A DNA stretch of 43,329 nt, from the NCBI GenBank assembly GCA_032718475.1, contig JAUCBJ010007983.1, positions 1 to 43,329 on the forward strand, written 5' to 3'. Numbering within the stretch: the first letter of the stretch is position 1; every line of letters begins with the position of its first letter. Positions 5,542 through 35,330 of this stretch are shown here, piece by piece. The DNA comes from Nemertoderma westbladi (taxonomy: Eukaryota; Animalia; Xenacoelomorpha). The notes under the pieces were generated by a model. That model saw only the letters and a program-made list of their open reading frames with translations, ran no database searches and was not told where the DNA came from. Position numbers and translations under genes: made by a program.

Positions 5542-7106
5542 GTACAATCTGATCAGGCTTACACGCCTTCTGTTCAATACTAGCCTACAAACAAATAAAA
5601 CTGACAGAAATAAGTAAGCTCCAAAAGAAACAAGGGGTGTACAGTCCCTAATCTCTTAAACAGCCTACCGGTATACAATAATCAAATCGAATAATACTAA
5701 TGTACTTATACGGGAAGTACCGGTTAGGACAGTTAGGCCTACGGACCTACAGAAGTACCGGTTCTGGCAGTTGGACCTACGGCAGTACCGGTTCTGGCAG
5801 TTGGGCCTACTGACCTACAGATGTACCGTTTAGGTTTACCGGTTGACCGGTACTTTCAACTTTATTGCTTACTGCAATAAAGAAGATATATCCGTTATTG
5901 TTCGCGCTTTCAGACCCTTGGCAGTTTAACCCGCCAAATTAGGATGTCTTTTAGATAATAAATCACTTTTAGCCTATGACAAGTATTTGATTCACTACAC
6001 TAGTCGAAACCAATCTGTGCGCGATCATTCACCCGCTGGATATACCCGGGAGATTGGGTTCGACGGCTTAATCTTATTGCTATGTAAGCCTAATGTATTA
6101 TTCGACTGACAGTATTATATAATCTCTGACAATATTATTCACCTTCGGGAAATATGAACAGTTCCTTTAGGACGTGGCGCTCTATCTATATAAACAGAGT
6201 TATGACTTAAACTACTCACAACGATATGGCTTAGTTATAATTCACATATATGGCGCATTCTTTAGGAAATGCTTCGTTATCAGTCTCACTCATACACAAT
6301 GCTGCACAATACTGCACACTAATCTGCCGATCTTCACTGATTTTAGTTACATATAAAAGGAACACGGACCGACTCATGTAGGGTCTATCAAATAACATTA
6401 GATTCACTTCAAACCACTTTAACATAAGTCACAATCGTTATATATAACCTTTCTCTCTTACCTTCGGTATATCAAGAATATTGGGTTTCGGGGTTATTTA
6501 TCGTTATTCCAAATATAATAATTCATCAACCATATTATGAAGGACCGACAGTAAATAGCAGTATAACAATATAAAGTATGCACAGTGTTTGATTAGGTAT
6601 GGTATGTTATGATTTGAGTTGAGTTGAGTTGCACAGTGATTCAGTGTGATAACGGATATATGTCCTTATAATTAAGCCTACTAGTGTTAGGCTAAAACAG
6701 AAAAGCACAAAATATTTCCAAGCCGCTCTCTCCTGGCTCAGGACTGAATGTAAACACTGCACATAAAGCATTACGTGATTTCTAGGAAATTTCTCTACAA
6801 GAGCCATAAAAATGCTCTGATTGGCTGACTGAACTGAGAGACGCCGTAGAACAAAGAAAATCAACACCTATGAATATCAGTTGTTAACCGTAGTCATAGT
6901 AACTACTGTTCAAGAGTAGCTATCACCCTTTGCGTCATGGAATTGCCATAGAATCATCAACTATGCCTTTCACAGTACACATACGGAGGAAATAGGTCTT
7001 AGATCCTCTAAAAAACACCGATACAGCAATAATACGGTCTCTTACACCTATTAAATCAACTACAGAGTATTTTAATGTAAAAGATAATAAAAATAACGGG
7101 GCAATT

Positions 7107-10100: not shown

Positions 10101-13100
10101 TTTACCGGTATGGTCATCAAAAGCTTTTAGAGGGATGGTCATCAAAGGCGTTTAGAGGGATGGTCATCAAAGGCTTTTAGAGGGGTGGTCATCAAAGGCT
10201 TTTAGAGGGATGGTCATCAAAGGCTTTTATATAGGGATGTTCATCAAAGGATTTTATATAGGGATGGTCATCAAAGGCTTTTACCGGTATGGTCATCAAA
10301 GGCTTTTAGAGGGATGGTCATCAAAGGCGTTTAGAGGGATGGTCATCAAAGGCTTTTAGAGGGATGGTCATCAAAGGCGTTTAGAGGGATGGTCATCAAA
10401 GGCTTTTATATAGGGATGGTCATCAAAGGATTTTATATAGGGATGGTCATCAAACGCTTTTAGAGGGATGGTCATCAAAGGCTTTTAGAGGGATGGTCAT
10501 CAAAGGCTTTTAGAGGGATGTTCATCAAAGGCGTTTAGAGGGATGGTCATCAAAGGCGTTTAGAGGGATGGTCATCAAAGGCTTTTATATAGGGATGTTC
10601 ATCAAAGGATTTTATATAGGGATGGTCATCAAAGGCTTTTAGAGGGATGGTCATCAAAGGCGTTTAGAGGGATGGTCATCAAAGGCTTTTACCGGTATGG
10701 TCATCAAAAGCTTTTAGAGGGATGGTCATCAAAGGCGTTTAGAGGGATGGTCATCAAAGGCTTTTAGAGGGGTGGTCATCAAAGGCTTTTAGAGGGATGG
10801 TCATCAAAGGCTTTTATATAGGGATGTTCATCAAAGGATTTTATATAGGGATGGTCATCAAAGGCTTTTACCGGTATGGTCATCAAAGGCTTTTAGAGGG
10901 ATGGTCATCAAAGGCGTTTAGAGGGATGGTCATCAAAGGCTTTTATATAGGGATGTTCATCAAAGGATTTTATATAGGGATGGTCATCAAAGGCGTTTAG
11001 AGGGATGGTCATCAAAGGCTTTTAGAGGGGTGGTCATCAAAGGCTTTTATATAGGGATGTTTATCAAAGGATTTTATATAGGGATGGTCATCAAAGGCGT
11101 TTAGAGGGATGGTCATCAAAGGCTTTTAGAGGGGTGGTCATCAAAGGATTTTATATAGGGATGGTCATCAAAGGATTTTACCGGTATGGTCATCAAAGGC
11201 TTTTAGAGGGATGTTCATCAAAGGATTTTATATAGGGATGGTCATCAAAGGATTTTATATAGGGATGTTCATCAAAGGCTTTTAGAGGGATGGTCATCAA
11301 AGGCTTTTAGAGGGGTGGTCATCAAAGGCTTTTAGAGGGATGGTCATCAAAGGCTTTTAGAGGGATGTTCATCAAAGGATTTTATATAGGGATGGTCATC
11401 AAAGGATTTTATATAGGGATGGTCATCAAAGGCTTTTAGAGGGATGGTCATCAAAGGCTTTTAGAGGGGTGGTCATCAAAGGCTTTTAGAGGGATGGTCA
11501 TCAAAGGCTTTTAGAGGGATGATCATCAAAGGCGTTTAGAGGGATGGTCATCAAAGGCTTTTATATAGGGATGTTCATCAAAGGATTTTATATAGGGATG
11601 GATGGTCATCAAAGGCTTTTAGAGGGATGGTCATCAAAGGCTTTTAGAGGGATGGTCATCAAAGGCGTTTAGAGGGGTGGTCATCAAAGGCGTTTAGAGG
11701 GATGGTCATCAAAGGCTTTTAGAGGGATGGTCATCAAAGGCTTTTATATAGGGATGTTCATCAAAGGATTTTATATAGGGATGGTCATCAAAGGATTTTA
11801 TATAGGGATGGTCATCAAAGGCTTTTAGAGGGATGGTCATCAAAGGCGTTTAGAGGGATGGTTATCAAAGGCTTTTAGAGGGGTGGTCATCAAAGGCGTT
11901 TAGAGGGATGGTCATCAAAGGCTTTTAGAGGGGTGGTCATCAAAGGCGTTTAGAGGGATGGTCATCAAAGGCTTTTAGAGGGATGGTCATCAAAGGCTTT
12001 TAGAGGGATGGTCATCAAAGGCTTTTAGAGGGATGGTCATCAAAGGCGTTTAGAGGGATGGTCATCAAAGGCTTTTAGAGGGGTGGTCATCAAAGGCTTT
12101 TATATAGGGATGTTCATCAAAGGATTTTATATAGGGATGGTCATCAAAGGCTTTTACCGGTATGGTCATCAAAGGCTTTTAGAGGGATGGTCATCAAAGG
12201 CTTTTAGAGGGATGGTCATCAAAGGCTTTTAGAGGGATGTTCATCAAAGGATTTTATATAGGGATGGTCATCAAAGGATTTTATATAGGGATGGTCATCA
12301 AAGGCTTTTAGAGGGATGGTCATCAAAGGCGTTTAGAGGGATGGTCATCAAAGGCTTTTATATAGGGATGTTCATCAAAGGATTTTATATAGGGATGGTC
12401 ATCAAAGGCTTTTAGAGGGATGGTCATCAAAGGCGTTTAGAGGGATGGTCATCAAAGGCTTTTACCGGTATGGTCATCAAAAGCTTTTAGAGGGATGGTC
12501 ATCAAAGGCGTTTAGAGGGATGGTCATCAAAGGCTTTTAGAGGGGTGGTCATCAAAGGCTTTTAGAGGGATGGTTATCAAAGGCTTTTATATAGGGATGT
12601 TCATCAAAGGATTTTATATAGGGATGGTCATCAAAGGCTTTTACCGGTATGGTCATCAAAGGCTTTTAGAGGGATGGTCATCAAAGGCGTTTAGAGGGAT
12701 GGTCATCAAAGGCTTTTAGAGGGATGGTCATCAAAGGCGTTTAGAGGGATGGTCATCAAAGGCTTTTATATAGGGATGGTCATCAAAGGATTTTATATAG
12801 GGATGGTCATCAAACGCTTTTAGAGGGATGGTCATCAAAGGCTTTTAGAGGGATGGTCATCAAAGGCTTTTAGAGGGATGTTCATCAAAGGCGTTTAGAG
12901 GGATGGTCATCAAAGGCGTTTAGAGGGATGGTCATCAAAGGCTTTTATATAGGGATGGTCATCAAAGGATTTTATATAGGGATGGTCATCAAAGGCTTTT
13001 AGAGGGATGTTCATCAAAGGCGTTTAGAGGGATGGTCATCAAAGGCGTTTAGAGGGATGGTCATCAAAGGCTTTTATATAGGGATGGTCATCAAACGATT

Positions 13101-14467
13101 TTATATAGGGATGTTCATCAAAGGCTTTTAGAGGGATGGTCATCAAAGGCGTTTAGAGGGATGGTCATCAAAGGCTTTTATATAGGGATGGTCATCAAAG
13201 GATTTTATATAGGGATGGTCATCAAAGGCTTTTAGAGGGATGGTCATCAAAGGCTTTTAGAGGGATGTTCATCAAAGGATTTTATATAGGGATGGTCATC
13301 AAAGGATTTTATATAGGGATGGTCATCAAAGGCTTTTAGAGGGATGGTCATCAAAGGCTTTTAGAGGGATGTTCATCAAAGGATTTTAGAGGGATGTTCA
13401 TCAAAGGATTTTATATAGGGATGGTCATCAAAGGCTTTTAGAGGGATGGTCATCAAAGGCTTTTAGAGGGATGTTCATCAAAGGATTTTATATAGGGATG
13501 GTCATCAAAGGCTTTTAGAGGGATGGTCATCAAAGGATTTTAGAGGGATGTTCATCAAAGGATTTTATATAGGGATGGTCATCAAAGGCTTTTAGAGGGA
13601 TGGTCATCAAAGGCTTTTAGAGGGATGTTCATCAAAGGATTTTATATAGGGATGGTCATCAAAGGCTTTTAGAGGGATGGTCATCAAAGGATTTTAGAGG
13701 GATGTTCATCAAAGGATTTTATATAGGGATGGTCATCAAAGGCTTTTAGAGGGATGGTCATCAAAGGCTTTTAGAGGGATGTTCATCAAAGGATTTTATA
13801 TAGGGATGGTCATCAAAAGATTTTATATAGGGATGTTCATCAAAGGATTTTATATAGGGATGGTCATCAAAGGCTTTTAGAGGGATGGTCATCAAAGGCT
13901 TTTAGAGGGATGTTCATCAAAGGATTTTATATAGGGATGGTCATCAAAGGATTTTATATAGGGATGTTCATCAAAGGATTTTATATAGGGATGGTCATCA
14001 AAGGATTTTATATAGGGATGGTCATCAAAGGCTTTTAGAGGGATGGTCATCAAAGGCTTTTAGAGGGATGTTCATCAAAGGATTTTATATAGGGATGGTC
14101 ATCAAAAGATTTTATATAGGGATGGTCATCAAAGGCTTTTAGAGGGATGGTCATCAAAGGCGTTTAGAGGGATGGTCATCAAAGGCTTTTATATAGGGAT
14201 GTTCATCAAAGGATTTTATATAGGGATGGTCATCAAAGGCTTTTAGAGGGATGGTCATCAAAGGCGTTTAGAGGGATGGTCATCAAAGGATTTTATATAG
14301 GGATGTTCATCAAAGGATTTTATATAGGGATGGTCATCAAAGGCTTTTACCGGTATGGTCATCAAAGGCTTTTAGAGGGATGGTCATCAAAGGCTTTTAG
14401 AGGGATGGTTATCAAAGGCTTTTATATAGGGATGTTCATCAAAGGATTTTATATAGGGATGGTCATC
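7107..14467. repeat. 25/27-bp minisatellite, left part (ATGGTCATCAAAGGCTTTTAGAGGG / ATGGTCATCAAAGGATTTTATATAGGG)
   Basis: Directly visible tandem array of roughly 285 units with a small set of interspersed variants. Confidence 0.98.
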
Positions 14468-14483
14468 AGGGATGGTCATATAG

Positions 14484-15834
14484 GGGTAGTCATTAGCAAA
14501 TCGCTGTCTACTGTACAAGAGATTACCTGTGGTGTACCGCAAGGTAGTATATTAGGTCCTCTGCTTTTTGTATGCTATGTAAATGATATGATAAGTAGTA
14601 TAGATCCCGATTTTAAACTCATTTTATATGCCGACGACAGTGCTCTTATTTTCTCTCATAAAGATCCTATCCATATTTCCCAAAAGTTAAGTGCAGTTCT
14701 AGAATCCTGTAATGAGTGGTTGGTTGATAATAAGCTATCCATTCACTACGGTAAAACTGAAAGTATTTTGTTTGGTTCCAAAAGAAAGTTAAAGAAGGTA
14801 ACTAAGTTTGAAGTCACTAGTAATGGACATAAGATTGAAAATAAAAAGGAAGTTAAATATTTAGGCGCCACATTGGATAACTGCTTATCAGGAGAAAGTA
14901 CAGTGAAAAATATTTTCTCGAAAGTTAACAGTAGGCTTAGGTTTCTATACAGAAATAAAAATAGTTTGAACACCGACTCCCGCAAGTTACTTTGCTCTTC
15001 TTTAATACAGTGTCACATGGACTATGCGTGCTCTTCTTGGTATGAAGGCTTAACCAAACAGTTTAAATGTAAATTACAAGTAGCTCAGAATAAAGTAGTA
15101 CGATTTATTAAAGACTACAAACCTAGGCACCACCTAACTCCAGATGACTTTTCTGAATCTGGACTACTTAACTTAGATAGTAGAGTTAAGCAGCTACGCC
15201 TTAACCATGTGCATAAAGTGTATAATGGTAAATGTCCCAATTACCTAAAACAAAAATTCAACAGAGTACGCGATACACACTCTTACAGTACCAGAGCTAG
15301 TGCTTCAAACTTCTACCTCCCGAATTGTAAATCCTTCGAATCTGATACTTTCTTTTTTAACGGCATTAAAAATTGGAACGCTCTGCCTAATGAAATTAAA
15401 AACCTAAATAATCAACATTCTTTTAAATCTGCAGTTAAATCTCACATCCGTGTGCAATGTAAAAATAGGTACAATAGTCCTACAGTAAGTTATTAGCTTA
15501 TTAATTATTTACTATTTATACTGTAATTACGTTTTATAATAAATTGTTCTGTACATTACATCTTTATCGTTGAGTCGGGCATTGTCACGCTCTCGGTAAA
15601 GTTGTACATGTACATAGTGTAATTACGTTTTATATTGGTTTTAGGTTAGCGTAGTGTAATATTGTATTTGTAACCAAGTAACATAAAGGACCCCCTTGGA
15701 AATAAGCTGCAAAGCTTTAGGGGTAATCCTATATGTTATGTTGGACAATACCTTTATACCGGTACATTGTTTGGTGTATTTGTTATTGTTTTTACATAAT
15801 GTATAAATAAATCTATCTATCTATCTATCTATCT
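14484..15834 (+). mobile_element. 5'-truncated non-LTR retrotransposon, L2/Crack (CR1 group) type, inserted in the satellite
   Basis: RT C-terminal half, then a 3' UTR with a GGACCCCCTTGGAAATAAG...GGGGTAATCC stem-loop (15688-15729), AATAAA and an (ATCT)6 tail. The satellite resumes at 15835. Confidence 0.92.
14486..15496 (+). pseudogene. Reverse transcriptase fragment (ORF2 C-terminus) of the LINE; uninterrupted but lacking its 5' part
   Basis: CGVPQGSILGPLLF, LYADDS, KYLG, DYACSSW and HSYSTR...WNALP motifs. The first ~70 aa of the ORF-track call (14276 start) are translated satellite. Confidence 0.92.
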
Positions 15835-17495
15835 AAAGGCGTTTAGAGGGATGGTCAACAAAGGCTTTTAGAGGGATGGTCATCAAAGGCTTTTACCGGT
15901 ATGGTCATCAAAGGCTTTTAGAGGGATGGTCATCAAAGGCTTTTAGAGGGATGTTTATCAAAGGATTTTATATAGGGATGGTCATCAAAGGATTTTATAT
16001 AGGGATGGTCATCAACGGCTTTTAGAGGGATGGTCATCAAAGGCTTTTAGAGGGATGGTCATCAAAGGCGTTTAGAGGGATGGTCATCAAAGGCTTTTAG
16101 AGGGGTGGTCATCAAAGGCGTTTAGAGGGATGGTCATCAAAGGCTTTTAGAGGGATGGTCATCAAAGGCTTTTAGAGGGATGGTCATCAAAGGCTTTTAG
16201 AGGGATGGTCATCAAAGGCTTTTAGAGGGATGGTCATCAAAGGCGTTTAGAGGGATGGTCATCAAAGGCTTTTAGAGGGATGGTCATCAAAGGCTTTTAC
16301 CGGTATGGTCATCAAAGGCTTTTAGAGGGATGGTCATCAAAGGCTTTTAGAGGGATGTTCATCAAAGGATTTTATATAGGGATGGTCATCAAAGGATTTT
16401 ATATAGGGATGGTCATCAACGGCTTTTAGAGGGATGGTCATCAAAGGCTTTTAGAGGGATGGTCATCAAAGGCGTTTAGAGGGATGGTCATCAAAGGCTT
16501 TTAGAGGGGTGGTCATCAAAGGCGTTTAGAGGGATGGTCATCAAAGGCTTTTAGAGGGATGGTCATCAAAGGCTTTTATATAGGGATGTTCATCAAAGGA
16601 TTTTATATAGGGATGGTCATCAAAGGATTTTATATAGGGATGGTCATCAAAGGCTTTTAGAGGGATGGTCATCAAAGGCGTTTAGAGGGATGGTTATCAA
16701 AGGCTTTTAGAGGGGTGGTCATCAAAGGCGTTTAGAGGGATGGTCATCAAAGGCTTTTAGAGGGGTGGTCATCAAAGGCGTTTAGAGGGATGGTCATCAA
16801 AGGCTTTTAGAGGGATGGTCATCAAAGGCTTTTAGAGGGATGGTCATCAAAGGCTTTTAGAGGGATGGTTATCAAAGGCTTTTATATAGGGATGGTCATC
16901 AAAGGCTTTTATATAGGGATGGTCATCAAAGGCTTTTAGAGGGATGGTCATCAAAGGCTGTTAGAGGGATGGTCATCAAAGGCTTTTATTTAGGGATGTT
17001 CATCAAAGGATTTTATATAGGGATGGTCATCAAAGGATTTTATATAGGGATGGTCATCAAAGGCTTTTAGAGGGATGGTCATCAAAGGCGTTTAGAGGGA
17101 TGGTTATCAAAGGCTTTTAGAGGGGTGGTCATCAAAGGCGTTTAAAGGGATGGTCATCAAAGGCTTTTAGAGGGGTGGTCATCAAAGGCGTTTAGAGGGA
17201 TGGTCATCAAAGGCTTTTAGAGGGATGGTCATCAAAGGCTTTTAGAGGGATGGTCATCAAAGGCTTTTAGAGGGATGGTCATCAAAGGCTTTTATATAGG
17301 GATGGTCATCAAAGGCTTTTATATAGGGATGGTCATCAAAGGCTTTTAGAGGGATGGTCATCAAAGGCTTTTAGAGGGATGGTCATCAAAGGCTTTTAGA
17401 GGGATGGTCATCAAAGGCTTTTAGAGGGATGGTTGGTCATCAAAGGCTTTTATATAGGGATGGTCATCAAAGGCTTTTAGAGGGATGGTCATCAA
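15835..17495. repeat. 25/27-bp minisatellite, right part
   Basis: Same unit as 7107-14467, roughly 65 units. Confidence 0.98.
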
Positions 17496-17869
17496 GTTCT
17501 CAAAATTTCACCATTTGCGCACAATGACATCTTGAATCGATCATATTACCAGAATTTTGATAAATACTTTTGTTCAAAACTTATATAAAAAAACCTATTT
17601 TTTGCCGGATTTTCGATAGATTTCTCCATTTTTTGGCTAAAAATTGCAACATTTTGTTAAATATTTCAGCTATAACAAAGAATATTAAAAAAGTGGTAAT
17701 AGGAGGAGCATCACCCAGTCATCATTCGTGCCAAATTTCACAAGAATTTGTTCATTTTTGGTAAAAGTCTTTGCATTTCGAAATTTAAAATTTGCATTCT
17801 TCAGAAAACATTTTTAAAGTTTATCGTTAGGTTAATTTAATTAATGCAAATGTTAGAATGCACACAACA

Positions 17870-18600
17870 CAGTTTTCCGGGTCGCTTTCAGGGTTTTCCG
17901 GGTCGCTGATTTCATTTCTGAAGTCAGTTTTCTCATTTGACTGCGTCATATCTGTCTAAAATGATGTCGGTCTGTCCGTCAAAATATGACCGATAGCTTA
18001 ACAGACAAACAGACAATGTTGATTCCGTAATACATAAAAACTGACATCGGAAATGAAATCACCAACCATTAAAACCCCCATAACATGATTTTTAGCTAGT
18101 TGGTATGCTTTCCTATTGCTATTACTTTGACGGACAGATCGCTGGACAGACAGAAAAACCGACAGATAGACATATTAGGTTTGGTTAAAAGAGAAAACTG
18201 ACGTCGGAAACTAAATCAGCAGCCAGGATAACCTCCATAACAAAACTTTTAGCTTGGTGGAATGCTTTCCTAAATTTAGACAGACATACAGACGGACATA
18301 CAAACAGACAGACATAATATACTTTTCTAAATATGAAAACTGACATCGGAATTGAAATCAGAGACCAGGAAAAACACAACAAAAAAAGTTTTAGCTTGAT
18401 GGTATGATGTCCTTATATTTAGACAGACATAAAGTCATAATAGTTTTTGTTAAAAAGTGAAAACTAACGTTTGGAATGAAATTAGCGACCATGAAAACTC
18501 TCATTACAAAACTTTTCTCCAGGATAAATGCTTTTGTTACATGTTGACAGACAAACTGTCAGAAACACAATTCCAGACAGACACTTTTCACAGACATTTA
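17870..18600. repeat. Diverged ~120-157-bp repeat family (GAAAACTGACATCGGAAATGAAATCAG.. + CAGA runs), probable non-autonomous DNA element remnant
   Basis: Direct copies at ~18037, 18194, 18336 and 18459; one inverted copy at ~17891-17935; same family at 32760-33500. Confidence 0.75.
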
Positions 18601-18634
18601 CGCAGAGTAAGGTTAACATTATCACTCATAACTT

Positions 18635-19460
18635 CATACTAACTATAACTCCACAGAGTGTGTCTAAGGTGTCGTAGCACGCCATACTAACTGTAACTCC
18701 AGACAGTGTGTCTAAGGTGTTACAGCACGCCATACTAACTATAACTCCAGACAGTGTGTCTAAGGTGTCACAGCACGCCATACTAACTATAACTCCACAG
18801 AGTGTGTCTAAGTTGTCACAGCACGCCATACTAACTATAACTCCAGACAGTGTGTCTAAGGTGTCACAGCACGCCATACTAACTATAACTCCACAGAGTG
18901 TGTCTAAGGTGTCGTAGCACGCCATACTAACTGTAACTCCAGACAGTGTGTCTAAGGTGTCACAGCACGCCATACTAACTATAACTCCACAGAGTGTGTC
19001 TAAGGTGTCACAGCACGCCATACTAACTATAACTCCAGACAGTGTGTCTAAGGTGTCACAGCACGCCATACTAACTATAACTCCACAGAGTGTGTCTAAG
19101 GTGTCACAACACGCCATATTAACTATAACTCCAGACAGTGTGTCTAAGGTGTTACAGCACGCCATACTAACTATAACTCCACACAGTGTGTCTAAGGTGT
19201 CACAGCACGCCATACTAACTATAACTCCAGACAGTGTGTCTAAGGTGTTACAGCACGCCATACTAACTGTAACTCCTCACAGTATGTCTAAGGTGTCACA
19301 GCACGCCATACTAACTGTAACTCCAGACAGTGTGTCTAAGGTGTCACAGCACGCCATACTAACTATAACTCCAGACAGTGTGTCTAAGGTGTCACAGCAC
19401 GCCATACTAACTATAACTCCAGACAGTGTGTCTAAGGTGTCACAGCACGCCATACTAACT
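18635..19460. repeat. 48-bp minisatellite (CATACTAACTATAACTCCAGACAGTGTGTCTAAGGTGTCACAGCACGC), ~17 copies
   Basis: Visible tandem array; 16-aa periodicity in the ORF track. Confidence 0.97.
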
Positions 19461-19660
19461 ACTGTGTAACTCTAAATAGCGGTTTTGTTTTAGGTATTAC
19501 TAAATTAGTACATTTTGTTTAGTTAAGTAAAATATTTTATAAATTAACCCAGATTATCTGTTTAATGTCCCAAAAAACATGACGTCTAATGGCACTAAAT
19601 CTAATTATTTCATTGTCCAGCTCTGTCTTCACTTCACCATCTTATACTTTTTTCATTTAG

Positions 19661-19873
19661 AAATTTGCCGTGGTCCGTCGTTATTTGTTATCCAGCAACC
19701 TCCAACGTAACTCGGACTTGTCGTCGTTCAACTTAGCCGACGCGACTCGCATAATATCCGGGACGCCTTCCAGTAATCTTATAGCGACGCCGATTACAGA
19801 AGTTATTCGTAAAGAATTCGCAGAACCCGAATTGCAACTACAATATACTCAACTTAGCATTATATTAGCAGGG
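19661..19873 (+). CDS. Internal exon A of mesothelin/otoancorin/stereocilin-like host gene
   Basis: TTTTTTCATTTAG acceptor; open frame KFAVVRRYLL...QLSIILAG; GTTAG donor followed by AT-rich intron; phase 0/0. Confidence 0.7.
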
Positions 19874-20000
19874 GTTAGCTTATTTATATTTATATTTATT
19901 ACATTACAATGTAATATTAATAGTTCTAATAATTGGTTTTAGTTTTTAGCTTATTACTGTCATATTTATTTAAATGTAGTTGTTTATTAATATTTTTTAG

Positions 20001-20141
20001 TTCGATGATTCAAATGGTATGTTAACCTTGGGAAGGACTATGCCAACTCATCTTCCTTTGAAAACCTTCCTTGACTTTGATCCGGGGACCTTAAAGGATC
20101 TAAGTAGTGACCTCGGCAAAATTGATTTACAACCTTTTCAG
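20001..20141 (+). CDS. Internal exon B of host gene
   Basis: TATTTTTTAG acceptor; 47 codons FDDSNGMLTLGRTMPTHLPLKTFLDFDPGTLKDLSSDLGKIDLQPFQ; CAG|GTAAGT donor; phase 0/0; not in the ORF track. Confidence 0.85.
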
Positions 20142-21444
20142 GTAAGTCTCGATTGGTAAGTCTCGGTTGGTAAGTCAGGTAAGTCTCGGTTGGTAAGTCA
20201 GGTAAGTCTCGGTTGGTAAGTCAGGTAAGTCTCGAATGGTAAGTCAGGTAAGTCTCGGTTGGTAAGTCAGGTAAGTCAGGTAAGTCTCGGTTGGTAAGTC
20301 AGGTAATTCTCGGTTGGTAAGTCAGGTAAGTCTCGGTTGGTAAGTCTCGGTTGGTAAGTCAGGTAAGTCTCGGTTGGTAAGTCAGGTGAGTCTCGGTTGG
20401 TAAGTCAGGTGAGTCTCGGTTGGTTCTCGGTTGGTAAGTCTCGGTTGGTAAGTCAGGTAAGTCTCGGTTGGTTCGCGGTTGGTAAGTCTCGGTTGGTTCG
20501 CGGTTGGTAAGTCTCGGTTGGTAAGTCAGGTAAGTCTCGGTTGGTAAGTCAGGTAAGTCTCAGTTGGTAAGTCAGGTAAGTCTCGGTTGGTAAGTCAGGT
20601 AAGTCTCGGTTGGTAAGTCAGGTGAGTCTCGGTTGGTTCTCGGTTGGTAAGTCTCGGTTGGTAAGTCAGGTAAGTCTCGGTTGGTAAGTCAGGTGAGTCT
20701 CGGTTGGTTCGCGGTTGGTAAGTCAGGTAAGTCTCGGTTGGTAAGTCAGGTAAGTCTCGGTTGGTAAGTCAGGTAAGTCTCGGTTGGTAAGTCAGGTAAG
20801 TCTCGGTTGGTAAGTTTCGGTTGGTAAGTTGGTTATCGGTTGGTAAGTCTCGGTTGGTAAGTCAGGTAAGTCTCGGTTGGTAAGTCAGGTAAGTCTCGGT
20901 TGGTAAGTCAGGTGAGTCTCGGTTGGTTCGCGGTTGGTAAGTCAGGTAAGTCTCGGTTGGTAAGTCAGGTAAGTCTCGGTTGGTAAGTCAGGTAAGTCTC
21001 GGTTGGTAAGTCTCGGTTGGTAAGTCAGGTAAGTCTCGGTTGGTAAGTCATGTAAGTCTCGGTTGGTAAGTCAGGTGAGTCTCGGTTGGTTCTCGGTTGG
21101 TAAGTCTCGGTTGTTAAGTCAGGTAAGTCTCGGTTGGCAAGTCAGGTAAGTCTCGGTTGGTAAGTCAGGTATGTCTCGGTTGGTAAGTCAGGTGAGTCTC
21201 GGTTGGTTCGCGGTTGGTAAGTCAGGTAAGTCTCGGTTGGTTCTCGGTTGGTAAGTCAGGTAAGTCTCGGTTGGTTCTCGGTTGGTAAGTCAGGTAAGTC
21301 TCGGTTGGTTCTCGGTTGGTAAGTCAGGTAAGTCTCGGTTGGTTCTCGGTTGGTAAGTCAGGTAAGTCTCGGTTGGTTCTCGGTTGGTAAGTCAGGTAAG
21401 TCTCGGTTGGTTCTCGGTTGGTAAGTCAGGTAAGTCTCGGTTGG
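20139..21444 (+). repeat. ~23-bp tandem repeat made of 5' splice-site consensus (CAGGTAAGTCTCGGTTGGTAAGT)
   Basis: The array starts exactly at the exon B donor and is built from modules CAG/GTRAGT/CTCGGTTG. Confidence 0.97.
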
Positions 21445-21532
21445 TTTTATTTCTCTATATAGGCTCGGTTGGTTTTATTTCTCTATATACGCTCGGTTGG
21501 TTTTATTTCTCTATATAGGCTCGGTTGGTTTT
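21436..21532 (+). repeat. 28-bp triplication of the 3' splice site (GCTCGGTTGGTTTTATTTCTCTATATAG)
   Basis: Copies end in AG (21462), AC (21490) and AG (21518). Confidence 0.92.
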
Positions 21533-21653
21533 TGAGAAGTTACTTATTTCCGCGAAAACCGAAGACCCCAATTATGTGCTGAATTACAAAACAATTCGAA
21601 AACTTGGGAAGTTAGTCGACGGTTTGACTGGGAAACACTTTAAACCAGACAAG
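21519..21653 (+). CDS. Internal exon C of host gene
   Basis: TTTCTCTATATAG acceptor; ARLVFEKLLISAKTEDPNYVLNYKTIRKLGKLVDGLTGKHFKPDK; AAG|GTGAGT donor; phase 0/0; the IxxLGxLxxGL motif fits the family's helical repeat. Confidence 0.85.
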
Positions 21654-21753: not shown

Positions 21754-22805
21754 TCCTAACCCACCCCGTACCCAATGGGAGGACGGCCTACCAGTAACTA
21801 TAACTCCTAACCCACCCCGTACACAATGGGAGGACGGCCTACCGGTAACTATAACTCCTAACCCACCCCGTACCCAATGGGAGGACGGCCTACCGGTAAC
21901 TATAACTCCTAACTCCACCCCGTACACAATGGGAGGACGGCCTACCGGTAACTATAACTCCTAACCCACCCCGTACACAATGGGAGGACGGCCAACCAGT
22001 AACTATAACTCCTAACCCACCCCGAACCCAATGGGAGGACGGCCTACCGGTAACTATAACTCCTAACCCACCCCGTACCCAATGGGAGGACGGCCTACCG
22101 GTAACTATAACTCCTAACCCACCCCGTACCCAATGGGAGGACGGCCTACCAGTAACTATAACTCCTAACCCACCCCGTACCCAATGGGAGGACGGCCTAC
22201 CGGTAACTATAACTCCTAACCCACCCCGTACCCAATGGGAGGACGGCCTACCGGTAACTATAACTCCTAACCCACCCCGTACCCAATGGGAGGACGGCCT
22301 ACCGGTAACTATAACTCCTAACCCACCCCGTACCCAATGGGAGGACGGCCTACCGGTAACTATAACTCCTAACCCACCCTGTGCCCAATGGGAGGACGGC
22401 CTACCGGTAACTATAACTCCTAACCCGTACCCAATGGGAGGACGGCCTACCGGTAACTATAACTCCTAACCCGTACCCAATGGGAGGACGGCCTACCGGT
22501 AACTATAACTCCTAACCCACCCCGTACCCAATGGGAGGACGGCCTACCGGTAACTATAACTCCTAACCCACCCTGTGCCCAATGGGATGACGGCCTACCG
22601 GTAACTATAACTCCTAACCCGTACCCAATGGGAGGACGGCCTACCGGTATCTATAACTCCTAACCCGTACCCAATGGGAGGACGGCCTACCAGTAACTAT
22701 AACTCCTAACCCACCCCGTACACAATGGGAGGACGGCCTACCGGTAATATAACTCCTAACCCACCCCGTACCCAATGGGAGGACGGCCTACCAGTAACTA
22801 TAACT
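21754..22805. repeat. 51-bp minisatellite (TAACTATAACTCCTAACCCACCCCGTACCCAATGGGAGGACGGCCTACCGG), ~21 copies, some 46-bp variants
   Basis: Visible tandem array filling the intron between exons C and D. Confidence 0.97.
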
Positions 22806-22945
22806 GCTGCTTTTCGGCGGGATTTAAATTCCCCCAGCTGATCTAATAAACCCACTGCCTGAGATGGAGAACCAGTTGGTTCCGCTGCCCCTCTAAAGGG
22901 AAGCGACATGAATCTCTGGATTATCTCCCTTATTGTCCCCCTTAG

Positions 22946-23136
22946 ATGTCGCCTCTAGACGTTACCAGCTCGGTTTCTGCCATCGTATCATCCCAACGAA
23001 CCTCCCTCGATATGGATCGCACCCTAACCGAAGCTGTGCGACAGGCCATGTTGTTCATCTACGGAGACTCCTATATGGAACAACTGACTGACCTCGATAT
23101 GGAGGCCCTGGGCCCCAGAATTCTGTCGCAGTTCAG
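22946..23136 (+). CDS. Internal exon D of host gene
   Basis: CCCCCTTAG acceptor; MSPLDVTSSVS...LTDLDMEALGPRILSQF; CAG|GTAAGT donor; phase 0/2. Confidence 0.87.
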
Positions 23137-23241: not shown

Positions 23242-23371
23242 CGACTCAGAAGTGAACCAACTGAGTTCCGAGCAATGCCAGCAGTTTATGGGACGTCTGG
23301 GGAGCCATTCCGATCTAAATGTCGTCCGTTCTAGAAAGCAACGATTCGCTAATAAGATGTTGGATTGTATG
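23242..23371 (+). CDS. Internal exon E of host gene
   Basis: TTTACTATAG acceptor, phase 2 matching exon D. DSEVNQLSSEQCQQFMGRLGSHSDLNVVRSRKQRFANKMLDCM resembles the CxxFxxRI...R..L...AL.C disulfide segment of mesothelin-family proteins. ATG|GTAAGT donor. Confidence 0.87.
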
Positions 23372-23442
23372 GTAAGTTTCTTTGGATCTTTATCGGTTTT
23401 GAAGGTTAAGAATTTGGTTAAACATACTCCATACATGGAGCA

Positions 23443-26400
23443 GTGCTGTATATAACACTTATTCTTACCTTTGCTGTGGTGGATCTGTGCTGTATATAAC
23501 ACGTATTCTTTTATTTGCTGTGGTGGAACTGTGATGTATATAACACCTATTCTTACCTTTGCTGTGGTGGAACTGTGCCGTATATAACACTTATTCTTAG
23601 ATTTGCTGTGAAGGATCTGTGCTGTATATAACACTTATTCTTACATTTGCTGTGGTGGAACTGTGCTGTATATAACACTTATTCTTACCTTTGCTGTGGT
23701 GGAACTGTGCTGTATATAACACTTATTCTTACCTTTGCTGTGGTGGAACTGTGCTGTATATAACACTTATTCTTACCTTTGCTGTGGTGGAACTGTGCTG
23801 TATATAACACTTATTCTTAGCTTTTGCTGTGGTGGATCTGTGCTGTATATAACACGTATTCTTTTATTTGCTGTGGTGGAACTGTGATGTATATAACACC
23901 TATTCATACCTTTGCTGTGGTGGAACTGTGCCGTATATAACACTTATTCTTACCTTTGCTGTGAAGGATCTGTGCTGTATATAACACTTATTCTTACATT
24001 TGCTGTGGTGGAAATGTGCTGTATATAACACTTATTCTTACCTTTTGCTGTGGTGGAACTGTGCTGTATATAACACGTATTCTTATATTTGCTGTGGTGG
24101 AACTGTGATGTATATAACACTTATTCTTACCTTTGCTGTGGTGGAACTGTGCTGTATATAACACTTATTCTTACCTTTGCTGTGGTGAAACTGTGCGGTA
24201 TATAACTGTTATTCTTACCTTTGCTGTGATGGAACTGTGCTGTATATAACACTTAATATTACATTTGCTGTGGTGGAACTGTGCTGTATATAACACTTAT
24301 TCTTACCTTTGCTGTGGCGGAACTGTGCTGTATATAAAACACTTATTCTTACCTTTGCTGTGGTGGAACTGTGCTGTATATAACACTTATTCTTACCTTT
24401 GCTGTGGTGGAACTGTGCTGTATATAACACTTATTCTTCTTACATTTGCTGTGGTGGAACTGTGCTGTATATAACACTTATTCTTACCTTTGCTGTGGTG
24501 AAACTGTGCGGTATATAACTGTTATTCTTACCTTTGCTGTAATGGAACTGTGCTGTATATAACACTTAATATTACATTTGCTGTGGTGGAACTGTGCTGT
24601 ATATAACACTTATTCTTACCTTTGCAGTGGTGGAACTGTGCTGTATATAAAACACTTATTCTTACCTTTGCTGTGGTGGAACTGTGCTGTATATAACACT
24701 TATTCTTACCTTTGCTGTGGTGGAACTGTGCTGTATATAACACTTATTCTTCTTACCTTTGCTGTGGTGGAACTGTGCTGTATATAACACTTATTCTTAC
24801 CTTTGCTGTGGTGGAACTGTGCTGTATATAAAACACTTATTCTTACCTTTGCTGTGGTGGAACTGTGCTGTATATAACACTTATTCTTACATTTGCTGTG
24901 GTGGAACTGTGCTGTATATAACACTTATTCTTCTTACCTTTGCTGTGGTGGAACTGTGCTGTATATAAAACTTATTCTTACCTTTGCTGTGGTGGAACTG
25001 TGCCGTATATAACACTTATTCTTACCTTTGCTGTGAAGGATCTGTGCTGTATATAACACTTATTCTTACATTTGCTGTGGTGGAACTGTGCTGTATATAA
25101 CACTTATTCTTACCTTTGCTGTGGTGGATCTGTGCTGTATATAACACGTATTCTTTTATTTGCTGTGGTGGAACTGTGATGTATATAACACCTATTCTTA
25201 CCTTTGCTGTGGTGGAACTGTGCCGTATATAACACTTATTCTTACCTTTGCTGTGAAGGATCTGTGCTGTATATAACACTTATTCTTACATTTGCTGTGG
25301 TGGAACTGTGCTGTATATAACACTTATTCTTACCTTTTGCTGTGGTGGAACTGTGCTGTATATAACACGTATTCTTATATTTGCTGTGGTGGAACTGTGA
25401 TGTATATAACACTTATTCTTACCTTTGCTGTGGTGGACCTGTGCTGTATATAACACTTATTCTTACCTTTGCTGTGGTGAAACTGTGCGGTATATAACTG
25501 TTATTCTTACCTTTGCTGTGATGGAACTGTGCTGTATATAACACTTAATATTACATTTGCTGTGGTGGAACTGTGCTGTATATAACACTTATTCTTACCT
25601 TTGCTGTGGTGGAACTGTGCTGTATATAAAACACTTATTCTTACCTTTGCTGTGGTGGAACTGTGCTGTATATAACACTTATTCTTACCTTTGCTGTGGT
25701 GGAACTGTGCTGTATATAACACTTATTCTTCTTACCTTTGCTGTGGTGGAACTGTGCTGTATATAACACTTATTCTTACCTTTGCTGTGGTGGAACTGTG
25801 CTGTATATAACACTTATTCTTACCTTTTGCTGTGGTGGAACTGTGCTGTATATAACACGTATTCTTATATTTGCTGTGGTGGAACTGTGATGTATATAAC
25901 ACTTATTCTTACCTTTGCTGTGGTGGAACTGTGCTGTATATAACACTTATTCTTACCTTTGCTGTGGTGAAACTGTGCGGTATATAACTGTTATTCTTAC
26001 TTTTGCTGTGATGGAACTGTGCTGTATATAACACTTAATATTACATTTGCTGTGGTGGAACTGTGCTGTATATAACACTTATTCTTACCTTTGCTGTGGT
26101 GGAACTGTGCTGTATATAAAACACTTATTCTTACCTTTGCTGTGGTGGAACTGTGCTGTATATAACACTTATTCTTACCTTTGCTGTGGTGGAACTGTGC
26201 TGTATATAACACTTATTCTTACCTTTGCAGTGGTGGAACTGTGCTGTATATAAAACACTTATTCTTACCTTTGCTGTGGTGGAACTGTGCTGTATATAAC
26301 ACTTATTCTTACCTTTGCTGTGGTGGAACTGTGCTGTATATAACACTTATTCTTCTTACCTTTGCTGTGGTGGAACTGTGCTGTATATAACACTTATTCT

Positions 26401-29400
26401 TACCTTTGCTGTGGTGGAACTGTGCTGTATATAAAACACTTATTCTTACCTTTGCTGTGGTGGAACTGTGCTGTATATAACACTTATTCTTACCTTTGCT
26501 GTGGTGGAACTGTGCTGTATATAACACTTATTCTTCTTACCTTTGCTGTGGTGGAACTGTGCTGTATATAACACTTATTCTTACCTTTGCTGTGGTGGAA
26601 CTGTGCTGTATATAAAACACTTATTCTTTTACCTTTGCTGTGGTGGAACTGTGCTGTATATAACACTTATTCTTACCTTTGCTGTGGTGGAACTGTGCTG
26701 TATGTAACACTTATTCTTCTTACCTTTGCTGTGGTGGAACTGTGCTGTATATAACACTTATTCTTACCTTTGCTGTGCTGGAACTGTGCCGTATATAACA
26801 CTTATTCTTACCTTTGCTGTGAAGGATCTGTGCTGTATATAACACTTATTCTTACATTTGCTGTGGTGGAACTGTGCTGTATATAACACTTATTCTTACC
26901 TTTGCTGTGGTGGATCTGTGCTGTATATAACACGTATTCTTTTATTTGCTGTGGTGGAACTGTGATGTATATAACACCTATTCTTACCTTTGCTGTGGTG
27001 GAACTGTGCCGTATATAACACTTATTCTTACCTTTGCTGTGAAGGATCTGTGCTGTATATAACACTTATTCTTACATTTGCTGTGGTGGAACTGTGCTGT
27101 ATATAACACTTATTCTTACCTTTTGCTGTGGTGGAACTGTGCTGTATATAACACGTATTCTTATATTTGCTGTGGTGGAACTGTGATGTATATAACACTT
27201 ATTCTTACCTTTGCTGTGGTGGAACTGTGCTGTATATAACACTTATTCTTACCTTTGCTGTGGTGAAACTGTGCGGTATATAACTGTTATTCTTACCTTT
27301 GCTGTGATGGAACTGTGCTGTATATAACACTTAATATTACATTTGCTGTGGTGGAACTGTGCTGTATATAACACTTTCTTACCTTTGCTGTGGTGGAACT
27401 GTGCTGTATATAAAACATTTATTCTTACCTTTGCTGTGGTGGAACTGTGCTGTATATAACACTTATTCTTACCTTTGCTGTGGTGGAACAGTGCTGTATA
27501 TAACACTTATTCTTCTTACCTTTGCTGTGGTGGAACTGTGCTGTATATAACACTTATTCTTACCTTTGCTGTGGTGGAACTGTGCTGTATATAAATAACA
27601 CTTATTCTTACCTTTGCTGTGGTGGAACTGCGCTGTATATAAATAACACTTATTCTTACCTTTGCTGTGGTGGAACTGTGCTGTATATAACACTTATTCT
27701 TCTTACCTTTGTTGTGGTGGAACTGTGCTGTATATAACACTTATTCTTACCTTTGCTGTGGTGGAACTGTGCTGTATATAACACTTATTCTTCTTACCTT
27801 TGCTGTGGTGGAACTGTGTTGTATATAAATAACACTTATTCTTACCTTTGCTGTGGTGGAACTGTGCTGTATATAACACTTATTCTTACCTTTGCTGTGG
27901 TGGAACTGTGCTGTATATAACACTTATTCTTCTTACCTTTGCTGTGGTGGAACTGTGCTGTATATAACACTTATTCTTACCTTTGCTGTGGTGGAACTGT
28001 GCTGTATATAACACTTATTCTTACCTTTGCTGTGGTGGAACTGTGCTGTATATAACACTTATTCTTCTTACCTTTGCTGTGGTGGAACTGTGCTGTATAT
28101 AACACTTATTCTTACCTTTGCTGTGGTGGAACTGTGCTGTATATAACACTTATTCTTACCTTTGCTGAGGTGGAACTGTGCTGTATATAAATAACACTTA
28201 TTCTTCTTACCTTTGCTGTGGTGGAACTGTGCTGTATATAACACTTATTCTTACCTTTGCTGTGGTGGAACTGTGCTGTATATAACACTTATTCTTCTTA
28301 CCTTTGCTGTGGTGGAACTGTGTTGTATATAAATAACACTTATTCTTACCTTTGCTGTGGTGGAACTGTGCTGTATATAACACTTATTCTTCTTACCTTT
28401 GCTGTGGTGGAACTGTGCTGTATATAACACTTATTCTTACCTTTGCTGTGGTGGAACTGTGCTGTATATAACACTTTCTTACCTTTGCTGTGGTGGAACT
28501 GTGCTGTATATAAAACACTTATTCTTACCTTTGCTGTGGTGGAACTGTGCTGTATATAACACTTATTCTTACCTTTGCTGTGGTGGAACAGTGCTGTATA
28601 TAACACTTATTCTTCTTACCTTTGCTGTGGTGGAACTGTGCTGTATATAACACTTATTCTTACCTTTGCTGTGGTGGAACTGTGCTGTATATAAATAACA
28701 CTTATTCTTACCTTTGCTGTGGTGGAACTGCGCTGTATATAAATAACACTTATTCTTACCTTTGCTGTGGTGGAACTGTGCTGTATATAACACTTATTCT
28801 TCTTACCTTTGCTGTGGTGGAACTGTGCTGTATATAACACTTATTCTTACCTTTGCTGTGGTGGAACTGTGCTGTATATAACACTTATTCTTCTTACCTT
28901 TGCTGTGGTGGAACTGTGTTGTATATAAATAACACTTATTCTTACCTTTGCTGTGGTGGAACTGTGCTGTATATAACACTTATTCTTACCTTTGCTGTGG
29001 TGGAACTGTGCTGTATATAACACTTATTCTTCTTACCTTTGCTGTGGTGGAACTGTGCTGTATATAACACTTATTCTTACCTTTGCTGTGGTGGAACTGT
29101 GCTGTATATAACACTTATTCTTACCTTTGCTGTGGTGGAACTGTGCTGTATATAACACTTATTCTTCTTACCTTTGCTGTGGTGGAACTGTGCTGTATAT
29201 AACACTTATTCTTACCTTTGCTGTGGTGGAACTGTGCTGTATATAACACTTATTCTTACCTTTGCTGAGGTGGAACTGTGCTGTATATAAATAACACTTA
29301 TTCTTCTTACCTTTGCTGTGGTGGAACTGTGCTGTATATAACACTTATTCTTACCTTTGCTGTGGTGGAACTGTGCTGTATATAACACTTATTCTTCTTA

Positions 29401-30083
29401 CCTTTGCTGTGGTGGAACTGTGTTGTATATAAATAACACTTATTCTTACCTTTGCTGTGGTGGAACTGTGCTGTATATAACACTTATTCTTCTTACCTTT
29501 GCTGTGGTGGAACTGTGCTGTATATAACACTTATTCTTACCTTTGCTGTGGTGGAACTGTGCTGTATATAACACTTATTCTTACCTTTGCTGTGGTGGAA
29601 CTGTGCTGTATATAAATCACACTTATTCTTCTTACCTTTGCTGTGGTGGAACTGTGCTGTATATAACACTTATTCTTACCTTTGCTGTGGTGGAACTGTG
29701 CTGTATATAACACTTATTCTTCTTACCTTTGCTGTGGTGGAACTGTGCTGTATATAACACTTATTCTTACATTTGCTGTGGTGGAACTGTGCTGTATATA
29801 AATCACACTTATTCTTCTTCCCTTTGCTGTGGTGGAACTGTGCTGTATATAACACTTATTCTTCTTACCTTTGCTGTGGTGGAACTGTGCTGTATATAAC
29901 ACTTATTCTTCTTACCTTTGCTGTGGTGGAACTGTGCTGTATATAAATAACACTTATTCTTCTTACCTTTGCTGTGGTGGAACTGTGCTGTATATAACAC
30001 TTATTCTTACATTTGCTGTGGTGGAACTGTGATGTGTATAACACATAGTTTTACCTCCTTTGCTGCGGTGGAATGTGCTGTAT
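23443..30083. repeat. 44-bp minisatellite (CACTTATTCTTACCTTTGCTGTGGTGGAACTGTGCTGTATATAA), ~150 copies
   Basis: Visible tandem array with 42-51-bp length variants and higher-order blocks. Confidence 0.98.
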
Positions 30084-30239: not shown

Positions 30240-30251
30240 TTTAAAAACGCG
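30240..30251 (+). CDS. Candidate 12-nt microexon (FKNA) of host gene
   Basis: TGTTTTATTTGTTTTCTACAG|TTTAAAAACGCG|GTATGT; frame-preserving, phase 0/0 after exon E. Confidence 0.5.
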
Positions 30252-34725: not shown

Positions 34726-35330
34726 AATTTTTAGTGATTGATCATATAAGTTGTCAACTTTTGAATTCTTAAAATATTATTATACTAAAACAACTTGATC
34801 TCACACCCTACAGTCATATTCCCTAACTTTCTTTACTTTATTTAAACTTATATATAGATATCTATACTATATATATATCTATGGGGTTATTTTTTACCCA
34901 CCGGGACTAAAATCTGATATTTCCATATTATAATCTTATAAACCTAAGGCCCTTAAACCGATATTAATTTATTTTGATCTGTTTGGCTATTTTTTCATGT
35001 TATATGTATTGTTGTTTTCATCTTGCATCCAATTTAATGTCAACTCTCCCTATTTTTCATTATTTCGTTTTGCACAGCTAATTTAACAATAATTTAGTCT
35101 GAATAAAGTATGTTTCAAATTAAACTACCCATATATCTATTTTTTATTTGTTTCTTTATGAGACAGAGATTTATGAGATATTATGTAAGGGAAGAAACCA
35201 CATTGTATTGTAATTAATTAATTAATTAATTGTAATTATCATTAAAGTTAAATATTGTAAATTTAATTGCCATCCTTGTAATTGTAACCTAATGTTGCAT
35301 GTTATTCGTTGAATGTGCGTTCATTGCAAC

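What the first reader, a model, noticed from the sequence alone, without database searches (positions are those of the whole stretch)
20139..21444. An intron that is a polymer of ~100 consensus 5' splice sites
Seen: from the true donor onward nearly the whole intron is (CAG GTAAGT CTCGGTTG GTAAGT)n in the sense orientation, about two GTRAGT per 23 bp; a common variant, GTGAGT, still fits consensus. Any downstream donor frameshifts the message or includes TAA at 20157. Known: CAG|GTAAGT is perfectly complementary to the U1 snRNA 5' end, and AG|GT motifs define recursive splice sites. Inference: the cell must choose the first of ~100 strong donors; the array could act as a U1 sponge or telescripting element, a stepwise re-splicing ladder, or an NMD-coupled rheostat.
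Basis: partly seen in the sequence, partly recalled or inferred. Interest (0 to 1): 0.85.

Follow-up and report, generated by a model that had tools for sequence, protein, structure and literature searches.

The report
Intron built from own splice borders
One intron of an unidentified animal gene consists almost wholly of short copies of its own start signal and of the next exon's first bases, giving 93 look-alike splice donors, yet the one spliced transcript assembly seen uses the first donor, so it is likely a tolerated example of the "mirage" repeats known from lancelets and human genes and likely not a control device.

Summary
The array is real: intron 20142-21518 holds 93 GTRAGT (shuffles: mean 1.7, maximum 7), but only 41 follow CAG. 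It is a mosaic of three short words plus three 28-bp acceptor copies. With repeats removed, 33 nt remain. A spliced contig from a public run joins 20141 to 21519, first donor to last acceptor. Genomic contigs from two samples carry both ends of the array; its full length is unchecked. All 92 downstream donors would give a premature stop. Donor positions vary as often as other positions (5 vs 7 events), and 0 of 42 internal YAG|GT sites have the pyrimidine tract of a recursive site. Verdict: a 'mirage'/F7-type splice-junction minisatellite, likely grown by slippage and tolerated because the most upstream donor wins. Sponge, ladder and rheostat roles have no support. The unusual points are words that fuse both borders and the loss of all unique interior. 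The scan's earlier, unchecked notes report similar arrays in six other genes of this genome and in other animals. The host gene is unidentified.

The parts
19661..19873 (+). Exon A of the host gene (71 codons, open)
   Evidence: Spliced contig of run X4 covers 19659-19872 and skips 127 nt GT..AG to 20000; frame open
20001..20141 (+). Exon B, upstream exon of the array intron (47 codons, ends CAG, phase 0)
20139..20147 (+). True donor CAG|GTAAGT; also the 9-bp word A of the array
   Evidence: X4 contig leaves the genomic sequence here and goes on into the exon at 21519
20142..21518 (+). The intron, 1377 nt; 93.5% of its bases are covered by 8-mers of a 33-nt collapsed intron plus the adjoining exon ends
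20148..21435 (+). Mosaic minisatellite of word A (9 bp, exon-B end + donor, 43 further copies), word B (14 bp, exon-C start fused to the donor hexamer, 53 copies) and word C (11 bp, exon-C start, 14 copies); holds 92 extra GTRAGT
20157..20159 (+). In-frame TAA included by 91 of the 92 downstream donors
21436..21519 (+). Three 28-bp units spanning the acceptor (13 nt of exon-C start + pyrimidine tract + AG + G); copy 1 has an intact AG at 21461-21462, copy 2 has lost it (C at 21490), copy 3 is the acceptor used
   Evidence: X1 contig identical over 21447-21532, depth ratio 1.19 vs 1.196 predicted for this allele
21477..21477 (+). Candidate branch-point A (YTNAY) 41 nt before the used acceptor; the donor array has no YTNAY. 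Inferred, untested
21519..21653 (+). Exon C (45 codons); its first bases match words B, C and the 28-bp unit
   Evidence: X4 contig covers 21517-21653, preceded by the exon-B end and followed by the exon-D start
22946..23136 (+). Exon D
   Evidence: Its first 30 bases are the loose end of the X4 contig after 21653; frame open
23242..23371 (+).

Best explanation
The intron is filled by a minisatellite made of copies of its own two borders, which likely grew by replication slippage and is likely tolerated because the spliceosome takes the most upstream donor; the one spliced contig seen joins the first donor to the last acceptor. Likely order of events (inferred): a 28-bp duplication across the acceptor put the next exon's first 13 bases inside the intron. 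The donor hexamer came to lie directly against such a copy, with the old interior lost. Slippage between short direct repeats in this stretch (TC 9 bp apart at 20138/20147, GGT 14 bp apart at 20141/20155, seen in the sequence) then made the 9-, 14- and 11-bp words, which were amplified and mixed in blocks. Splicing likely stays correct because exon definition or 5'-to-3' scanning picks the first donor, as shown for human F7. The last acceptor likely wins because only it has a branch motif upstream. Any leak to a later donor would carry a premature stop and would likely be removed by NMD, as noise and not as regulation.
For: Shown: words B and C and the 28-bp unit start with exon C's first 10, 11 and 13 bases (chance about 1e-3 for the 10-mer and 6e-5 for the 13-mer in an intron of this size). 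93.5% of the intron is covered by 8-mers of the collapsed template. The longest word shared with exon C is 11 nt, against 5-8 nt in the other 34 array-exon comparisons. X4 contig (1070 nt) joins 19873/20001, 20141/21519 and 21653/22946, and X4 has no cover in the introns laid. DNA contigs of two samples run into the array and stop where 31-mers become repeated (predicted 20182; about 20184 from record lengths); X3 holds multi-copy array pieces. Distinct variant types are 5 in donor vs 7 in non-donor positions, expected share 0.45, p=1.0; copy-weighted 11/576 vs 12/707, p=0.83; four variants damage a donor hexamer. 30 internal donors match the true one over 4 nt upstream and 10 nt downstream, and the true donor ranks 11th of 93 in predicted accessibility, so position, not sequence or fold, likely decides. 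Tandem arrays make up 62% of the window. Precedent: PMC3087553, PMC3902484, PMC1557585.
Against: RNA evidence is one assembled contig from one run whose kind is only guessed (listed 'DNA?'). Contigs drop rare forms, and NMD would hide leak products, so accuracy of donor choice is not measured. In F7 minigenes, perfect-consensus pseudo-sites did compete, taking about 70-90% of splicing from a weak true site (PMC1557585 section 9); the CAG copies here are perfect consensus, although the true donor is too. In 6-16 and CBS the next one or two copies are used (PMC1557585 introduction). The selection test rests on 12 events and has little power. The branch-point argument is weak: exon D's acceptor also has no YTNAY in the range scanned. 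The order of events cannot be tested without a relative's intron. The array's interior and length were not checked against reads.
Confidence: 0.82

Rival explanations
1. NMD-coupled rheostat: a share of transcripts is spliced at later donors and destroyed, and array length or U1 level tunes the gene's output.
For: All 92 downstream donors, and the first acceptor copy, give a premature stop. Perfect-consensus pseudo-sites can compete in F7 minigenes, and neighbouring copies are used in 6-16 and CBS. NMD would hide such forms from the contig seen.
Against: One TAA 15 nt into the intron accounts for 91 of the 92 outcomes, so one or two extra donors would serve as well as 92. No sign of selection on donor positions. 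Only the correct form was laid in X4, although contigs show presence only.
Confidence: 0.06
2. Recursive ladder: the intron is removed in steps at internal CAG|GTRAGT sites, each step regenerating the same donor.
For: 42 internal YAG|GT sites. A jump from the first donor to any of them would restore an identical donor and leave no trace in mRNA, so the contig cannot exclude it. [quoted passage not shown]
Against: 0 of 42 sites meet the published minimal motif of 5 or more pyrimidines, 0-4 N, YAG, GT (PMC10156609 passage; count). The array has no YTNAY. Donors lie 9-25 nt apart, too close for unit-by-unit removal (own knowledge of minimal intron size). A 1.4-kb intron needs no ladder.
Confidence: 0.04
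3. U1 sponge or telescripting element: the array binds many U1 snRNPs to titrate them or to shield the nascent RNA from early polyadenylation.
For: 34 nine-mers are fully complementary to the U1 5' end (U1 sequence from own knowledge), so U1 probably does bind the nascent RNA. One AATAAA lies downstream at 22845.
Against: A few nascent transcripts of one locus cannot titrate the most abundant snRNP (own knowledge). The intron holds no AATAAA/ATTAAA, and the one at 22845 has exon C's own donor nearer. A 44-bp array in the same region carries 128 GTRAG on the opposite strand, 117 of them AAG|GTAAGA, so donor-rich arrays also occur here where this transcript cannot use them. No selection signal.
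Confidence: 0.02
4. The array's length or word order in the window is partly an assembly artefact, or the locus is dead.
For: No read or contig spanning the array was examined; X1 may be the window's own source. No homologue of the protein was found.
Against: Both ends and multi-copy internal words are present in a second sample that differs by a SNP at 20135. The array has block-wise variants (7 GTGAGT, 5 CGCGG), which looks like real turnover. Five exons keep one open frame, and three junctions are seen spliced.
Confidence: 0.06

Closest known systems
Amphioxus 'mirage' minisatellites (Adh3, globins BflGb6/BflGb9, troponin C, PGBD5). Seen: matching passages of PMC3087553 and PMC3902484; the Adh3 paper only as cited there
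   Same: Tandem copies spanning an exon-intron border, at 5' or 3' borders; units carry AG/GT signals; regular splicing reported unaffected; unit sizes 10-72 bp (Adh3) overlap the 11-, 14- and 28-bp words here.
   Different: The globin examples have 2-6 units of 150-160 bp at one border; here about 110 words fill the whole intron, both borders are copied, and word B fuses the downstream exon's start to the upstream donor. Host is an unidentified animal, not shown to be a lancelet.
Human F7 IVS7 37-bp VNTR (PMC1557585; seen: abstract, introduction passages, section 9, discussion)
   Same: First unit spans the exon/intron border, so identical pseudo-donors follow the true one; only the most upstream is used, by position and not by sequence or fold.
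   Different: F7 has 5-9 copies of a weak donor (consensus value 74) 37 bp apart; here 92 extra donors average 14 bp apart, 40 of them CAG|GTRAGT, the class that did compete in F7 minigenes.
Human 6-16 (IFI6), CBS, lamin B2 and PDGF donor VNTRs (seen only as described and cited in PMC1557585; the 6-16 paper was not held)
   Same: [quoted passage not shown]
   Different: In 6-16 and CBS the next two copies are used as well; no such forms were seen here (one contig). None is described as carrying the downstream exon's start.
Recursive splice sites (PMC10156609; seen: abstract and passages)
   Same: YAG|GT core present 42 times.
   Different: No pyrimidine tract or branch motif before any of them; spacing 9-25 nt.

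Membership tests
Mirage minisatellite | Tandem unit spans an exon-intron boundary of the host gene | tested here: met
   Word A = 20139-20147 across the donor; 28-bp unit across the acceptor; both borders confirmed by a spliced contig. Words B and C are derived from the borders but do not span a native one.
Mirage minisatellite | Units duplicate AG/GT splice signals | tested here: met
   92 extra GTRAGT and 1 extra intact acceptor
Mirage minisatellite | Regular mRNA is still made | tested here: met
   X4 contig joins 20141 to 21519; minor forms not measurable from contigs
Mirage minisatellite | Length instability between alleles or cells | tested here: inconclusive
   Sample S2 has a 58-nt contig with one mismatch at the acceptor repeat, as an all-AG allele would give; depth ratios 0.93-1.26 lie nearest 2 copies (1.39) and far from 3 (2.39), but the changed letter was not listed and contig depth is a poor copy count. 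Donor array length not measured in any sample.
F7-type donor VNTR (oriented scanning) | Pseudo-donors identical in sequence to the true donor | tested here: met
   30 of 40 internal CAG donors match over 4 nt upstream and 10 nt downstream
F7-type donor VNTR (oriented scanning) | Next copy takes over when the first donor is mutated | not testable with these tools
   needs minigenes
Recursive splice site | YAG|GT core | tested here: met
   42 sites
Recursive splice site | Pyrimidine tract (Y5+ N0-4) before the YAG | tested here: not met
   0 of 42 (motif from PMC10156609)
Recursive splice site | Lariats or sawtooth coverage at the site | not testable with these tools
   only contigs were offered
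NMD-coupled (unproductive) splicing switch | Alternative form carries a premature stop | tested here: met
   92 of 92 downstream donors
NMD-coupled (unproductive) splicing switch | Signal under purifying selection or conserved | tested here: inconclusive
   No excess conservation of donor positions within the array, 5 vs 7 events, low power; no orthologue available
NMD-coupled (unproductive) splicing switch | Regulated use of the alternative site | not testable with these tools
   needs RNA reads with and without NMD block

The most novel reading that the evidence does not exclude
The repeat has replaced the whole ancestral interior of the intron. Collapsed, the intron is 33 nt, against 105 and 127 nt for the gene's two repeat-free introns, so the gene may now depend on the minisatellite as spacer and on the duplicated acceptor units for its branch point. 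That would be a trapped, unlosable repeat whose allele length also sets how much transcript leaks to perfect decoy donors and into NMD.
Probability: 0.15. Interest if true: 0.5.

Novelty: new member of a known kind. Interest (0 to 1): 0.25.

Why it matters
As it stands it is one more, unusually dense, case of a known oddity. Its use is as a natural test substrate: 30 decoys identical to the true donor over 14 nt, among donor hexamers 9-25 nt apart, are a harder test of 'first donor wins' than the F7 array, whose donors are weak. If the intron can no longer lose the array, it would show how a neutral repeat becomes required without doing anything new. Together with the scan's unchecked notes on six other genes of this genome, it suggests that such arrays are common enough here for a genome-wide test of whether splice borders seed minisatellites more often than chance.

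Tried and rejected
No whole genome is held for this window, so no genome-wide count or strand-bias test was possible. No RNA holder was listed by the run search; X4 is treated as RNA because of its spliced contig and lack of intron cover, not its label. Host protein identity: no hit for exon A or exon E among longer proteins up to 2000 aa; no Pfam family for 5 of 5 exons; the 2 phmmer hits for exon D are repeat proteins whose scores are sums of weak stretches (Bactrocera futsch-like and an unnamed TPR protein; best tblastn E 0.45), rejected; ESM Atlas leads under 0.9 for exon D (dynein lid) and none for exon E; PDB gave one chance hit, E 1.5. A likeness of exon E to the mesothelin/otoancorin/stereocilin family is recalled from memory and supported by no call. 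The LINE reverse transcriptase did not fix the animal group (nearest named hit a bivalve at 58%). De novo intron gain by duplication of an AG|GT proto-site was rejected: the spliced junction is CAG|GC and the intron's 3' end does not resemble exon B's end. Masking of decoys by RNA structure was rejected: true donor ranks 11 of 93. The other six arrays in the window are not copies of these five exons' borders (6-8 nt shared). Literature searches that found no description of a repeat fusing a donor to the next exon's start: (open-licence library only; the original Adh3, 6-16, CBS and lamin B2 papers and all supplements were not seen, and supplement 4 of PMC3087553 holds mirage alignments that might bear on this). 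One search returned nothing. Word-order statistics of the array were not computed.

Full report
Observation. The stretch 20139-21446 holds 93 GTRAGT on the + strand (86 GTAAGT, 7 GTGAGT) and none on the - strand; the rest of the window has 7 on +. Base shuffles give a mean of 1.7 and at most 7 in 2000. Mean spacing is 14 nt. Only 41 follow CAG (34 CAG|GTAAGT, true donor included) and 50 follow TTG. Tandem Repeats Finder reports overlapping periods of 9, 14, 23, 34, 46 and 102 because the array is a mosaic: word A (9 bp) 44 times, word B (14 bp) 53 times, word C (11 bp) 14 times, 5 unassigned bases inside it, then a 28-bp unit three times at 21436-21519.

The gene. Exons at 19661-19873, 20001-20141, 21519-21653, 22946-23136 and 23242-23371 keep one open frame (exon A's end). 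The run search listed 6 runs, 4 holding the stretch, none on record as RNA. I laid 4 of the 6 on the two flanks of the array. Run X4 has one 1070-nt contig that skips 19874-20000 (GT..AG), leaves the genome after 20141 into the first bases of the exon at 21519, and leaves 21653 into the exon at 22946; record positions 664-806 and 530-666 adjoin, and X4 has no cover in the introns laid. A DNA run would also have shown the intron-bearing locus, so X4 behaves as a transcriptome (inference). The message is therefore spliced from the first donor to the last acceptor. This is one contig; rare forms would not show. The protein could not be named. The host is an animal: spliceosomal introns, a LINE whose nearest named relative is from a bivalve at 58% and a gag-like frame.

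Is the array real? X1, X2 and X3 each have a genomic contig that runs past the donor into the array and ends about 19 bases beyond 20165, where 31-mers start to repeat in the window allele (predicted end 20182). X1 may be the window's source; its 86-nt contig over the acceptor units is identical, with a depth ratio of 1.19 against 1.196 predicted. X2 and X3 are one other sample, differing at 20135; X3 holds array pieces at about 3 and 7 times unique depth, and both hold a 58-nt contig with one mismatch that fits an allele with about two all-AG acceptor units (rough). Existence is thus supported in two samples; length and word order of the interior were not checked against reads.

What it is made of. 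Word A is the last three bases of exon B plus the donor hexamer. Words B and C and the 28-bp unit begin with the first 10, 11 and 13 bases after the first base of exon C; the chance of the 10-mer or 13-mer anywhere in an intron of this size is about 1e-3 or 6e-5. The 28-bp unit is exon C's start plus the intron's pyrimidine tract and AG. One donor hexamer plus one such unit makes a 33-nt intron, and 8-mers of that template with its exon ends cover 93.5% of the 1377 bases (80% with 9-mers). None of the six other arrays of the window shares more than 8 nt with these exons. The sequence itself shows short direct repeats at the right distances for slippage: TC at 20138 and 20147 (9 bp) and GGT at 20141 and 20155 (14 bp). 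So the donors are not an enrichment that needs explaining by selection: they are copies of the local donor, which also fixes their strand and starting point.

Selection. Among 110 internal words, distinct variant types number 5 in donor hexamers (576 nt) and 7 elsewhere (707 nt), p=1.0; weighted by copies 11 and 12, p=0.83. The test is weak (12 events) but gives no hint of selection.

How splicing copes. Thirty of 40 internal CAG donors match the true one over 4 upstream and 10 downstream bases, and the true donor ranks 11th of 93 in predicted accessibility, so position must matter (inference). For human F7, whose intron 7 VNTR reiterates the donor, minigenes showed functional but silent pseudo-sites and choice of the most upstream one (PMC1557585 abstract and discussion). 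Against a clean picture: perfect-consensus pseudo-sites took about 70-90% of splicing from the weak F7 donor (section 9), and 6-16 and CBS use the next copies (introduction). Some leak is therefore plausible here. All 92 downstream donors give a premature stop, 91 through the TAA at 20157, and the first acceptor copy adds 56 nt and also stops, so leak would likely be cleared by NMD and be invisible in X4. The last acceptor has a YTNAY 41 nt upstream, the first has none, and the middle copy has lost its AG; exon D's acceptor also lacks YTNAY in the same range, so this argument is weak.

Rivals. Recursive ladder: 42 internal YAG|GT, none with the minimal tract used by PMC10156609 (passage; count), and no YTNAY in the array; silent multi-unit jumps cannot be excluded from contigs. 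U1 sponge or telescripting: no poly(A) signal in the intron, one at 22845; one locus cannot titrate U1 (own knowledge); a 44-bp array downstream carries 128 GTRAG on the opposite strand. Rheostat: the premature stop is real but needs no 92 copies. Artefact: see above.

Comparison. Tandem repeats spanning exon-intron borders at either end, carrying AG/GT signals, unstable in length and apparently not disturbing splicing are the amphioxus 'mirages' (passages of PMC3087553 and PMC3902484); human F7, 6-16, CBS, lamin B2 and PDGF are donor examples. This array meets the border, signal and regular-mRNA features; instability is inconclusive. I reached this reading before looking at the scan's notes; those notes, unchecked, report the same kind of array in six other genes of this genome (2; 4 of the 8 shown of 19) and introns filled from both ends in two other genomes. 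What I did not find in print (open library only, supplements not seen) is a word that fuses the downstream exon's start to the upstream donor, with no unique interior left.

Verdict. Real feature, known kind, likely neutral: best explanation 0.82, interest 0.25. The boldest reading left open (0.15) is that the gene now needs the repeat as spacer, since 33 nt is far below its other short introns (127 and 105 nt), and that allele length tunes leak into NMD.

Noticed in passing
window 23436-30083: 44-bp array (147 copies) carries 128 GTRAG on the - strand, 117 as AAG|GTAAGA, antisense to the host gene. It could be a donor mirage of an unseen antisense gene or a chance likeness.
   Followed up: partly
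window 18635-19461 and 21754-22805: A 48-bp and a 51-bp array in different introns share an identical 13-nt core, TAACTATAACTCC, suggesting a common seed such as a dispersed element.
   Followed up: partly
window 14498-15835, between 7106-14468 and 15835-17495: A 5'-truncated LINE (reverse transcriptase, Pfam PF00078 in its relatives; ends in an (ATCT)n tail) is inserted into a 25-bp satellite, splitting it in two.
   Followed up: partly
window 162-3652 (- strand): Two overlapping long frames (646 and 598 aa) in different frames, ending in cysteine/histidine knuckles; looks like the gag region of a BEL/Pao-type LTR retrotransposon (label recalled).
   Followed up: no
window 35330-43329: Very homogeneous 55-bp array (99% matches, 145+ copies, runs off the window). 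Each unit has a CACTAAT motif and a pyrimidine-rich stretch before TAG, but it misses my acceptor threshold (0 sites with 10 of 14 pyrimidines); a possible acceptor mirage of a later exon.
   Followed up: partly
window 30240-30251: Candidate 12-nt micro-exon: long pyrimidine tract and CAG before it, GTATGT after it. The X4 contig has about 210 nt beyond exon E that were not placed.
   Followed up: no
window 1-19660: The X4 contig has 50 nt upstream of exon A; an 18-nt piece of it has no match in the window with up to 2 mismatches, so the intron before exon A is likely over 19 kb and holds the transposons and satellites above.
   Followed up: partly
window 20142-21518: The sense strand has 22 GGTTGG-N3-8-GGTTGG motifs, like two-tier G-quadruplex aptamers (recalled); might add to the array's instability.
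   Followed up: no
whole window: Seven tandem arrays make up 62% of the 43.3 kb.
   Followed up: yes
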